Shown piece by piece: positions 6,146 through 62,310 of a stretch of DNA of 64,000 nt. This stretch comes from Octopus vulgaris (taxonomy: Eukaryota), in contig OX597815.1 in assembly GCA_951406725.2 (NCBI GenBank), positions 182,032,001 through 182,096,000 of the forward strand, read 5' to 3'. The translations under genes and the position numbers were made by a program. A model generated the notes under the pieces. The model was not told the origin of the DNA, ran no database searches, and saw only the letters and a list, made by a program, of their open reading frames with translations. Each line of letters begins with the position of its first letter. The first letter of the stretch is position 1.

Positions 6146-6328
6146 AGCTAAATAATAATTGAGTAGACGAATGACAGATAGCTGAGCTTTATCCATCTTA
6201 TATCTTAGTCTTATTTTTAACTAAAGCATTTCAATATTAATATAATAATTTTGCAGCGTGGAAGGTGTTTGTAAGCCATTTAAGAAACACACAAAAGCCG
6301 TTCAATTCACTTCAACATTTAAATTTAA

Positions 6329-6378
6329 TTTGTCAAAATATTTTCGTCGCTAAAATCCGTGACCTGTTCACTGACAAA
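6329..6378 (-). ncRNA. Hammerhead-like motif with GUGAACA core
   Basis: tttgtca-GTGAACA-g gtcac ggatttta gcgac-GAAAA-TA-TTT-tgacaaa. Confidence 0.7.
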
Positions 6379-6401
6379 AGTTCGTGCTGCATCTCTGGAT
6401 T

Positions 6402-6451
6402 TTTGTCAGTGAACAGGTTGCAGATTTTAGTGACGAAAATATTTTGACAAA
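6402..6451 (+). ncRNA. Hammerhead-like motif with GUGAACA core
   Basis: tttgtca-GTGAACA-g gttgc agatttta gtgac-GAAAA-TA-TTT-tgacaaa; 7-bp stem I. Confidence 0.7.
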
Positions 6452-6689
6452 TTAAACTTAAATGTTGAAGTGAATCGAACGGCTTTTGTGTGTTTCTTAA
6501 ATGGCTTACAAACACCTTCCACGCTGCAATTGTTTTCGTTCCAGCACACGACCTCAGATCAAATCACTTGCTATGCGAGTACATCTCCGTAATATAATAA
6601 TTTTAGAAATTATATATCTAAACGTAAAGAAATACTGTATTTAATAAAAGTCCCTGTGTACATATTCACAAAATTCTGTAGAAAGATTT

Positions 6690-18455: not shown

Positions 18456-18892
18456 CAGTTCTATAATTAAGAGATGAGGAATTATTTACATTTGACAGAT
18501 ATTTGTCCTCATCTTGTTTGTTGTTAACATGTTTCAGCTGATATAACCTCCAGCCTTCATCAGGTGTCTTCGGGAAATTTTAAACCTGGGTTCTCATTCC
18601 TAAGGTATTTTTTGATGTTGTTATTAATATTATTGTTCAGGCCACTGCCTGGAATCGAACTCGGAATCTTGGGGTTAGTAACACTGCACAGGGCTAACCC
18701 CAAGATTCCGAGTTCGATTCCAGGCAGTGGCCTGAATAATAATAACATCAAAAAGTACCTTAGGAATGAGAACCCAGGTTTAAAATTTCCCCAAGACACC
18801 TGATGAAGGCTGGAGGGTATATCAGCTGAAACATGTTAACAACAAACAAGATGAGGACAAATATCTGTCAAATGTAAATAAGGTAAATAATG
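18456..18892. mobile_element. tRNA-hammerhead family E, head-to-head inverted pair
   Basis: Near-perfect palindrome of about 200-bp arms around 18680-18693. Each arm has a B box, (AAT)n and CTGATGA...GAAAC. Confidence 0.85.
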
Positions 18893-20557: not shown

Positions 20558-20892
20558 ATTATTTGCATTATTTACATTTGACGGATATTTGTCCTCGTCT
20601 TGTTTGTTGTCAACACAAAGTTTCAGCTGATATACCCTCCAGCCTTCATTAGGTGTCTTGGGGAAATTTCAAACCTGGGTTCTCATTCCTAAAGTATTTT
20701 CCAGGTAGTGACCTGAAGAAGAAGGAGGAGAAGAAGAAGAAGAAGGAGAAGAAGAAGAAGAAGAAGAAGAAGAAGAAGAAGAAGAAGAAGAAGAAGAAAA
20801 AGAAGAAGAAGAAGTAGAAGAAAAAGAAGAAGAAGAAGTAGAAGAAGTAGAAGAAGTAGAAGAAGAAGAAGAAGAAGAAGAAGAAGAAGAAG

Positions 20893-20930
<38 letters not shown>

Positions 20931-21128
20931 CGACACCACCACCACCACCATCGAAAAATACCTTAGGAATCAGAACCCAGGTTCGAAATTTCCCCAAGAC
21001 ACCTGATGAAGGCTGGAGGGTATATCAGCCGAAATGTTGTCTTAACAAAGAAGATGAGGACAAATATCGGTCAAATGTAAATAATGTAAATAATGTACAT
21101 AATTCCCCATCTCTTAAATATAGAACTG
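20558..21128. mobile_element. Family E inverted pair with central (GAA)n/(CAA)n/(CAC)n
   Basis: Arms 20558-20700 and 20949-21092, tail to 21128, TSD tattttaagtg at 20547-20557 and 21129-21139. Confidence 0.85.
20715..20950 (+). repeat. Compound trinucleotide microsatellite
   Basis: (GAA)n, then (CAA)n, then (CAC)n. Confidence 0.95.
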
Positions 21129-36744: not shown

Positions 36745-36967
36745 GTTCTATATTTAAGAGATGAGGAATTATGTACATTATTTACATTATTTACATTTGA
36801 CGGATATTTGTCCTCATCTTGTTTGTTGTTAGCACAACGTTTCGGTTGATACACCCTCCAGCTTTCATCAGGTGTCTTGGGATAATTTCGAACATAGGTT
36901 CTCATTCCTAAGGTATTTTTCGATGTTATTATTATTATTATTATTATTATTGAGTGAGAGAGCAGTG

Positions 36968-44796: not shown

Positions 44797-44905
44797 CAAG
44801 GGTATATCAGCCGAAATGTTATGTTAACACCAAACAAGATGAGGACAAATATCCGTCAAATGTAAATAATGTACATAATTCCTCATCTCTTAAATATAGA
44901 ACTGT
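44797..44905 (+). mobile_element. Family E 3' fragment
   Basis: agggtatatcagccgaaatgtt...aaatatagaactg. Confidence 0.75.
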
Positions 44906-47604: not shown

Positions 47605-47933
47605 TTACAGACATGTACTTGCATAGCAAGTGACCTGATCTGATATCGCCTGCTAGAACGAAAACAATTGCAGCATGGAAGGTGTTTATAAGCCATTAAA
47701 GAAACACAAAAACCATTAGATTCACTTCAACATTTAAATTTAATTTACCAAAATATTTTCATCCTTTTGAAATCGCAACCTGTTCACTGACAAAATTCTG
47801 TGCTGTGTGAAATTTTGTCAGTGAACAGGTAGTGGTCTCAAAGCATTGAAAATATTTTGGTAAATCAAATTTAAATGTCGAAGTGAATCTAACGGTTTTT
47901 TGTGTGTTTTAAATGGCTTATAAACACCTTCCA
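47605..47933. mobile_element. Family F foldback element (GUGAACA motifs at 47744-47794 on - and 47814-47864 on +)
   Basis: Homologous to the 6253 element in opposite orientation; flanked by the direct repeat taataatatt. Confidence 0.8.
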
Positions 47934-48090: not shown

Positions 48091-48321
48091 AGAGTTCTTT
48101 CGTCAGCTGTTTCTAGGATATCCCCGAATATAGGATACTCCCTATTTGTCTCTGATGACAGAATATCCCATACTCTAGGATATCCCAGAAACAGCTGACG
48201 AAAGAACTCTGGCCGAAATACAATTAATGTAAAAAATATAATAAAGCTGAAGCAAATGAACACCAAATATATAGTGTGTGTGTTTTTATTGGCTAAACTG
48301 GCAACATGACCATCCCCAAAT

Positions 48322-48330
<9 letters not shown>
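48091..48330. mobile_element. Small foldback element with degenerate hammerhead cores
   Basis: Arms 48091-48123 and 48178-48210; gtct-CTGATGA...GAAACAGCTG. Confidence 0.45.
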
Positions 48331-48367
<37 letters not shown>

Positions 48368-61529: not shown

Positions 61530-62310
61530 TTCACATATATTGTTTTTTACCTCCTGTGTTTTTATATATGTATACTTTATATGTTTAAGAGCCATGGTAA
61601 TACTTATATATGACCAAACAGTTTTGGAGGCATAGTGTTATGTATAAAGTCATTGACTCGAATTTGATGTTTGTTCTTTGATCAATGCTTCTTTATCTTT
61701 GTCTTAACTTTTAAGTCACTTCAAAAAAAAACCCTCAATCAAATAACACTGTTTACAAGATTCTATGCTTGGAATTACCAATTAGAAACACCATTGCAAC
61801 TCACACACAAGTTACAGGAAACATATATATATACACCATTCTGCTTAAATAATGGAACTGCAGATACAATATCCTTATGTATCTCAAGTCTGTTTTCATT
61901 CATCCACTTCACTCTGTACTTCATATCTTCTCTGTAACAACTCACTTAAACATTTTCTCACACCGTCTCCAATGAAGGGAGATGTAAAATATCACAGAAA
62001 TAGCTGTAAGGCCTTCTCTTTATACAATTGCAGCGTGGAAGGTGTTTATAAGCCATTTAAGAAACACACAAAAGCCGTTCGATTCACTTCAACATTTAAG
62101 TTTAATTTGTCAAAATATTTTCGTCGCTAAAATCCGTGACCTGTTCACTGACAAAAATCTGTGCTGCAATTGTTTTCGTTTCAGCACACGATCTCAGATC
62201 AAATTACTTGCTATGCGAGTACATCTCCGTAACTTCTCTTTATAAATGTTCTGAAAACTTTTACAGCCTTGGATTTTTTAATCTCATTCTGTTAATTTTT
62301 ATATATATGC
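61530..62310 (+). mobile_element. Second copy of the 57670 element, carrying a family F insertion
   Basis: Colinear with 57670-58200; decayed hammerhead at about 61965-62012. Confidence 0.6.
62025..62232. mobile_element. Family F insertion (GUGAACA motif at 62106-62155 on -)
   Basis: Perfect 12-bp TSD cttctctttata at 62013-62024 and 62233-62244. Confidence 0.85.

What the first reader, a model, noticed from the sequence alone, without database searches (positions are those of the whole stretch)
6253..6592. Family F: hammerhead with a swapped core pair (GUGAACA, G3-C8)
Seen: in five copies (6329-, 6402+, 47744-, 47814+, 62106-) the core reads GTGAACA instead of CTGANGA. In the best three copies it is framed by a 7-bp stem I, a gtcgc/gcgac-type stem II and palindromic GAAAATATTT. 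Two core changes restore the 3-8 pair exactly. Known: compensatory G3/C8 double mutants rescue hammerhead cleavage. Inference: a natural high-copy variant ribozyme kept under selection, with an unusual UUU cleavage triplet.
Basis: partly seen in the sequence, partly recalled or inferred. Interest (0 to 1): 0.85.

Follow-up and report, generated by a model that had tools for sequence, protein, structure and literature searches.

The report
Retrotransposon hammerhead with flipped core pair
The terminal repeat of a Penelope-like retrotransposon in what is probably an octopus genome carries, in thousands of copies, a hammerhead-ribozyme motif whose core C-G pair is flipped to G-C while related elements keep C-G or use U-A, which likely means selection has preserved the ribozyme's active fold, although self-cleavage is untested.

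Summary
Observation confirmed. The five GTGAACA motifs come from three truncated insertions of one Penelope-like retrotransposon (PLE); 6253-6592 is an inverted plus a sense pseudo-LTR (pLTR) and tail between 12-bp target duplications. The motif sits in the pLTR of an autonomous RT + GIY-YIG element (27 of 30 endonuclease loci; full pLTR-ORF-pLTR unit), where PLE minimal hammerheads lie. It has 6,323 exact 20-mer matches; G3/C8 is the family state (88 of 94 arms). Sister PLE families carry the homologous hammerhead with C3-G8, one relative U3-A8; helices covary (97 of 98 cells paired); a tree makes G3-C8 derived. So this is a natural compensatory swap of the 3-8 pair, which nine literature searches did not find reported from nature (two key papers unavailable). 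Cleavage is not shown: no excess of 5' ends at the predicted cut, a sister family fixed A9C, and the window copies are decayed and locked in a 129-bp hairpin. U17 is common in PLE hammerheads, so UUU is not unusual. New variant of a known kind.

The parts
6241..6252 (+). left target-site duplication (12 bp)
   Evidence: same 12 bases at 6593-6604 (flanks; sequence)
6253..6394 (-). inverted, 5'-truncated pLTR copy; starts at the common short-copy 5' end and stops at the first 3'-end class
   Evidence: (L062)
6329..6378 (-). hammerhead motif, G3 6371, C8 6366, helix II 4/5 paired, U17 6336
6398..6533 (+). sense pLTR copy
6402..6451 (+). hammerhead motif: helix I 6402-6408/6445-6451, core G3-A9 6409-6415 (C8 6414), extra G 6416, helix II 6417-6421/6430-6434, GAAA 6435-6438, palindrome AATATT 6438-6443, U17 6444, predicted cut after 6444
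   Evidence: this copy's own lowest-energy fold is an alternative hairpin
6501..6592 (+). first codons of the PLE ORF (frame opens at ATG 6501, 56 nt after the predicted cut); truncated here
   Evidence: continues into the RT-EN ORF in L369 and L370
6534..6592 (+). PLE tail between the two 3'-end classes
   Evidence: 121 of 130 arms end at one of two sites
6593..6604 (+). right target-site duplication
47605..47933 (-). second, older insertion: tail + sense pLTR on - strand (motif 47744-47794) and inverted arm on + strand (motif from 47814); both helices II broken
62025..62232 (+). third insertion: inverted pLTR (motif 62106-62155 on - strand) plus tail, 12-bp target duplication 62013-62024/62233-62244

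Best explanation
The motif is the minimal type I hammerhead in the pseudo-LTR of an autonomous Penelope-like retrotransposon, its C3-G8 core pair is replaced by G3-C8 across the family, and it likely still works as a slow, dimer- or protein-assisted self-cleaving RNA predicted to cut after U17. Shown: pLTR position in an RT + CxxC-linker + GIY-YIG element, copy number, fixation of G3/C8, homologous C3-G8 and U3-A8 motifs in relatives, covarying helices. Inferred: G3-C8 is derived (tree on endonuclease-end fragments); the swap was kept because the 3-8 pair belongs to the active conformation (recalled from the full-length hammerhead structure); the 2-bp helix III needs a partner, either the second pLTR 4.3 kb away in the same transcript through the AATATT palindrome, or the element's own protein; U17 likely made the swap tolerable because C17 would pair with G3. 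Cutting would remove the 5' end of the transcript 56 nt before the first ATG of the ORF and is probably a minor or regulatory event, not a step in insertion. The window copies are dead 5'-truncated insertions.
For: pLTR downstream of the endonuclease in the same sense in 27 of 30 loci (one has the core deleted). Two identical motifs 4,261 nt apart around the ORF. pLTR-ORF junction in 6 of 11 regions fetched. 6,323 exact 20-mers, control 0. 88 of 94 arms chosen without regard to the core read GTGAACAG. 1,492 canonical-core matches with the same extra G and GTCRC/GYGAC helix II, control 0; PLE endonuclease remnants in 5 of the 31 such loci searched. Metagenome PLE relatives: L326 and L330 C3-G8, L327 U3-A8. 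Nine-family alignment: 97 of 98 cells paired, 8 of 11 pairs changed on both sides, 3-8 pair CG 6, GC 2, UA 1, 0 of 500 shuffles. Family F is sister to the C3-G8 families (UFBoot 97 and 100). Typical copy folds helix II at p 1.0 and helix I at p 0.66-0.98. C3G/G8C partly restores cleavage in a PLE hammerhead, which cleaves only with the PLE protein (PMC11167929). G3-C8 is less active with C17 than with G17 (PMC3884650, data not shown there).
Against: No cleavage data. 5' ends do not pile up at the predicted cut: 3 seen, 2.5 expected among 75; 9 against 4.8 within one base (p 0.05 uncorrected, with similar excess 4-10 nt downstream). The youngest sister family has A9C in all 39 arms, 38 of them CTGATGC, and L327 also has C9, so the core of this clade tolerates decay. 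A G3-U17 wobble is predicted at p 0.66, and the dimer (-27.6) is not favoured over monomers with that wobble (-29.6 kcal/mol). Between the two F subfamilies the core and helices are not significantly more conserved than the rest of the unit (0 of 42 against 7 of 154, p 0.35). G3.G8 mismatch copies are over-represented (42 of the first 100 of 240 position-8 variants). PLE minimal hammerheads cleave poorly even as dimers (PMC4209133) and cleavage was not needed for insertion in vitro (PMC11167929). The shuffle control ignores relatedness and the structure was drawn from these sequences, so it is not a probability.
Confidence: 0.6

Rival explanations
1. The hammerhead fold is kept as a structural element (protein binding, RNA folding or promoter-proximal element of the pLTR) and does not cleave at a meaningful rate.
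For: No cut-site pile-up; A9C in two relatives; PLE protein-dependence and dispensability for insertion in PMC11167929; helices covary strongly.
Against: A complementary double change at 3 and 8, twice in this clade (G-C, U-A), points to the tertiary core pair rather than the helices; U4, G5, A6, G12, A13, A14, A15.1 and U16.1 are invariant in all 9 aligned families.
Confidence: 0.25
2. A vestigial ribozyme: two core changes drifted to fixation in the master element under relaxed selection and happen to be complementary.
For: Core decay in sister families; excess of G3.G8 copies; core not more conserved than the rest between F subfamilies; other PLE clades thrive without hammerheads (PMC8557442).
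Against: If two of 13 core positions changed at random, hitting 3 and 8 and restoring a Watson-Crick pair has odds of about 1 in 230 (hand estimate, 1/78 x 1/3); every other core position is intact in family F; subfamily changes cluster in loop 2. G3.G8 copies occur on young and old loop backgrounds, which fits a recurrent error better than a transposing intermediate.
Confidence: 0.12
3. A foldback DNA element (MITE-like) whose palindromes resemble a hammerhead by chance.
For: The window locus is a 129-bp inverted repeat; the heptamer is at chance frequency; no Rfam hit.
Against: Variable 5' truncation, two fixed 3' ends, linkage to an RT-endonuclease ORF and canonical homologues.
Confidence: 0.02

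Closest known systems
[quoted passage not shown]
   Same: pLTR location, extra nucleotide between 9 and 10.1, G10.1-C11.1, palindromic short helix III, frequent U17, opposite-strand pairs of motifs from truncated copies.
   Different: Core pair G3-C8. In their 56-row Fig. S3 (hand count) 53 are C3-G8, 2 U3-A8, 1 U3-G8, none G3; no cephalopod row.
Natural U3-A8 hammerheads (Perreault 2011, PMC3088659; Schistosoma Cercyon PLE family in PMC4209133)
   Same: Natural compensatory change of the 3-8 pair.
   Different: Here both changes are transversions that invert the pair and put a pyrimidine at position 8.
Engineered C3G/G8C double mutant, including in the anole Poseidon PLE hammerhead (Frangieh 2024, PMC11167929)
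   Same: Identical core change; same layout of hammerhead, ORF start in the pLTR and two reverse-transcription start sites giving a tail.
   Different: Natural and fixed in a multi-thousand-copy family; ORF opens 56 nt after the cut rather than inside helix II; CxxC linker present.
Neptune/Nematis-type EN+ PLEs (Craig 2021, PMC8557442)
   Same: RT with DKG-type motif, CX2-5CxxC-type linker, C-terminal GIY-YIG, (TA)n targeting, inverted 5'-truncated copies, tail.
   Different: Clade not placed against reference sequences; tail about 57 nt against the 30-40 nt described.

Membership tests
Penelope-like element (EN+) | Single ORF with PLE-type RT and C-terminal GIY-YIG endonuclease | tested here: met
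   Open frames of 839 and 1,025 codons with DKSG, SLYPSID, GAIG, YVDD, VYQIKC and YIGET motifs. Pfam gave no hit for the F protein; homologue P0066 hit RVT_1 and GIY-YIG below cut-off; weak RT hit in PDB.
Penelope-like element (EN+) | pLTRs in direct or inverted arrangement flanking the ORF | tested here: met
   L380 direct pair; inverted copies in L122, L124 and the window.
Penelope-like element (EN+) | Tail from two internal reverse-transcription start sites | tested here: met
   47 and 74 of 130 arms end at two sites about 57 nt apart, inside the ORF start; the start sites themselves are inferred.
Neptune clade | CX2-5CxxC linker before the endonuclease; RT phylogeny with reference Neptune elements | tested here: inconclusive
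   Linker CQSNCAVC present but shared with Nematis; no reference-based tree was built.
Hammerhead ribozyme | Three-helix junction with helices I and II | tested here: met
   Folding and cross-family covariation.
Hammerhead ribozyme | Literal core consensus CUGANGA | tested here: not met
   GUGAACA; differs at 3 and 8.
Hammerhead ribozyme | Watson-Crick 3-8 pair, U4 G5 A6, A9, G12 A13 A14, A15.1-U16.1, N17 not G | tested here: met
   All present in family F.
Hammerhead ribozyme | Stable helix III, or a palindrome allowing a dimer | tested here: inconclusive
   AATATT is self-complementary but the dimer is not energetically preferred in the nearest-neighbour model.
Hammerhead ribozyme | Loop 1-loop 2 tertiary contact | not tested
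   None evident; absent from PLE minimal hammerheads per PMC6155905.
Hammerhead ribozyme | Site-specific self-cleavage after N17 | not testable with these tools
   Only assembled contigs were available; the genomic 5'-end proxy was negative.

The most novel reading that the evidence does not exclude
The first natural, active hammerhead with an inverted G3-C8 core pair, in a PLE clade that has used C-G, U-A and G-C at this tertiary position, with U17 co-selected to avoid a G3-C17 trap: evolutionary evidence that PLE hammerheads are under selection for the catalytic conformation in vivo.
Probability: 0.4. Interest if true: 0.65.

Novelty: new variant of a known kind. Interest (0 to 1): 0.5.

Why it matters
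Whether the weak hammerheads in Penelope-like elements really cleave in vivo is open. A natural inversion of the 3-8 pair, next to C3-G8, U3-A8 and A9C sister families in one clade, gives a ready-made allelic series to test it. It also shows that CUGANGA-based searches and Rfam miss a family with thousands of copies.

Tried and rejected
Rfam scan: no hammerhead hit, uninformative. Hidden canonical subfamily within F: rejected; a canonical core with the F palindrome gave 26 matches against 3 in the control, only 3 of them F copies, and copies changed at both 3 and 8 gave 35 matches, of which 22 of the 30 fetched were F and only 2 of those were C3-G8. Cleavage-site pile-up: 90 of 218 matches fetched, 15 dropped because the element resumed after an indel, 75 kept; no peak. 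G3.G8 as an ancestral transposing intermediate: the excess is real against all ACA-context sites (p 8e-7) but marginal against sense-strand ones (p 0.05) and spans young and old loop types, so left as unexplained. Splicing at the branch-point/acceptor-like sequence just 5' of the hammerhead: no splice joint in contigs of 3 RNA-guessed runs and 1 other run, which proves nothing. Expression: those contigs cover the pLTR but may be DNA or read-through; not used as evidence. First alignment had wrong coordinates for the F rows; the second misaligned two rows with a 2-nt helix III loop (L326 and the window 37235 motif), which were left out of the counted alignment. Search for tail read-through by pattern was not followed up. 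Earlier scan findings: none returned. Lunse 2017 and Przybilski 2007 are not held, so a prior report of natural G3-C8 there cannot be excluded.

Full report
Observation. GTGAACA occurs 9 times in the window against 10.9 expected, but five occurrences share one flank: G3 at 6371-, 6409+, 47787-, 47821+ and 62148-. Each has a 7-bp helix I, an extra G after A9, GAAA, the palindrome AATATT and U17; helix II is 5/5, 4/5, 4/5 paired in the three good copies and broken in the two at 47.7 kb. They belong to three insertions. 6253-6592 is an inverted arm and a sense arm (129 nt, 95% complementary) plus a tail, between 12-bp duplications. A transcript through it would form one long hairpin (-217 kcal/mol), and the 6402+ arm alone prefers an alternative hairpin. 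These copies are poor test substrates.

The element. The window lies in a 2.8-Gb genome; a protein that its source names Octopus vulgaris matches this genome at 100% over 98 residues, so it is probably an octopus. An exact 20-mer over helix I, core and helix II has 6,323 matches, control 0; none of the five window arms matches it exactly, so this is a floor. No arm was found in 235 kb of 75 loci fetched for other families, so the window is richer than average and the total is probably no more than a few tens of thousands. Upstream of long copies lies an ORF with RT motifs, a CQSNCAVC linker and GIY-YIG motifs, with open frames up to 1,025 codons. The pLTR follows the endonuclease at 0.9-1.3 kb in the same sense in 27 of 30 loci (the other 3 had no match, and one of the 27 lacks the core). 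It also precedes the ORF in 6 of 11 regions fetched, and L380 holds a complete pLTR-ORF-pLTR unit with two identical motifs 4,261 nt apart (its ORF is broken). The ORF frame opens 56 nt after the predicted cut. Of 130 arms, 47 and 74 end at two sites about 57 nt apart, the tail signature explained in PMC11167929 (parts 1-2 of 4 read). Inverted 5'-truncated copies, tails and (TA)n targeting are typical of PLEs (PMC8557442, passages). Pfam did not recognise the protein, so the assignment rests on motifs, homologues and architecture; Neptune-like is likely but not tested by reference phylogeny.

The swap is a family trait. In 94 arms chosen by the 3' part, the endonuclease or a downstream anchor, 88 read GTGAACAG; G3 is in 91 and C8 in 92. 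Two subfamilies differ at four loop-2 positions plus loop length and at seven positions outside the ribozyme, none in core or helices; loop against core is significant (p 3e-4, though possibly one event), core and helices against the rest are not (p 0.35). There is no canonical subfamily inside F. Near-identical sequence is held by runs under three organism labels, and contigs of organism C show the same core.

Relatives show what it came from. Labels G, H, I and K are mine. Family G (57% protein identity) has the homologous motif in its pLTR with C3-G8; its youngest subfamily has C at position 9 in all 39 arms. A canonical-core pattern with the same extra G and helix II gave 1,492 matches, control 0, from older G and from families H and I; L342 (I) shares the four innermost helix I pairs with F and, within the conserved core, differs only at 3 and 8. 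Of 14 metagenome PLE loci, L326 and L330 have C3-G8 and L327 has U3-A8 with C9 downstream of the ORF, L325 has a C3-G8 core with an irregular 3' half, and the rest gave no convincing motif or ended too early. In a nine-row alignment (two rows left out for misalignment) 97 of 98 cells pair, 8 of 11 pairs change on both sides, and the 3-8 pair is C-G 6, G-C 2, U-A 1; no shuffle of 500 and no slid control comes close. The rows are related and the structure was drawn from them, so this is descriptive. A tree on 80-299-residue C-terminal fragments of 15 rows puts F sister to G/H/I (UFBoot 97; G/H/I 100) with weakly resolved outgroups (31-51) that carry C3-G8 or U3-A8: G3-C8 is most simply derived.

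Mechanism. Shown: position, fold of typical copies (helix II p 1.0, helix I p 0.66-0.98), covariation. From papers: G8C alone cuts activity about 10^5-fold and C3G partly restores it (PMC8495972, one passage); the same holds in a PLE hammerhead, which cleaves only with the PLE protein and is not needed for insertion in vitro (PMC11167929); PLE minimal hammerheads cleave weakly and only as dimers or with a built-in helix III (PMC4209133, parts 1-2 of 4; PMC6765202, section 11 part 2); G3-C8 does worse with C17 than G17 (PMC3884650, one passage, data not shown there). Recalled, not from a call: the 3-8 pair forms in the active conformation of the full-length structure. Inferred: a slow cut after U17, helped by the second pLTR or the protein, trimming the 5' end of the transcript; U17, already present in several C3-G8 relatives, likely allowed G3.

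Against activity. No excess of 5' ends at the cut (3 against 2.5 of 75), although cleaved RNA need not be a template. A9C in two relatives. A G3-U17 wobble at p 0.66 and no energetic preference for the dimer. G3.G8 copies make up 42 of the first 100 of 240 position-8 variants (hand tally) against 6 of 72 at other ACA sites, unexplained. Contigs from four runs could show neither ends nor splicing.

Novelty. Natural U3-A8 is published (PMC3088659, passages and section 8; PMC4209133). Natural G3-C8 was not found in searches, nor among the 56 rows of Fig. S3 of PMC4209133 (supplement file 2, parts 1-2 of 3; file 1 not searchable), nor in passages of PMC6155905, PMC10085705, PMC6962438 and bioRxiv 10.64898/2026.07.22.740005 (its supplements are closed); PMC1636495 gave no hits for the terms tried. 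Lunse 2017 and Przybilski 2007 are not held, Hammann 2012 and Seehafer 2011 were not looked up, and figures are not searchable, so an earlier report is possible. Verdict: it is built like a PLE minimal hammerhead and is a homologue of canonical ones, fails the literal CUGANGA consensus, and its catalysis is untested. New variant of a known kind; interest 0.5.

Noticed in passing
L295-L324 (family G pLTR, e.g. L300:2561-2609): A young autonomous sister PLE with open frames up to about 1,300 codons has C instead of A at core position 9 in all 39 arms, while its older subfamily has A9; L327 independently has C9 with U3-A8.
   Followed up: partly
G000-wide: Copies with G3 and G8 (mismatch) are as common as C8-to-T transitions, on young and old loop backgrounds; possibly a recurrent slippage error at AC-AG.
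   Followed up: partly
window 6384-6394 (-); L006:1465-1500: 34 of 130 arms start within a few bases of AGATG, directly after a branch-point and acceptor-like sequence that is also initiator-like; many carry an extra G in front, as a copied cap would give. Start site or splice acceptor is unresolved.
   Followed up: partly
L274, L275, L284, L286, L287 and about a third of the rows: One fixed inverted-arm junction of family F recurs at very many loci, suggesting a rearranged non-autonomous derivative amplified as a unit.
   Followed up: no
window 37235+ and 27153-, with further pieces at 18481-18886, 20563-21089, 36782-36951, 44799-44873: A different repeat with a canonical CTGATGA hammerhead core, extra A before helix II, AACGTT palindrome and U17; Rfam missed it.
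   Followed up: partly
window 48091-48352: Truncated, inverted piece of a family-G-like pLTR lying 160 bp from the second family F insertion.
   Followed up: partly
L122:9100-9900 (-): Remnant of another GIY-YIG-type PLE endonuclease next to a family F element (read by eye from the printed sequence).
   Followed up: no
P0094, P0095: Annotated octopus proteins contain pieces of these PLE ORFs, probably gene-model artefacts or exonised fragments.
   Followed up: no
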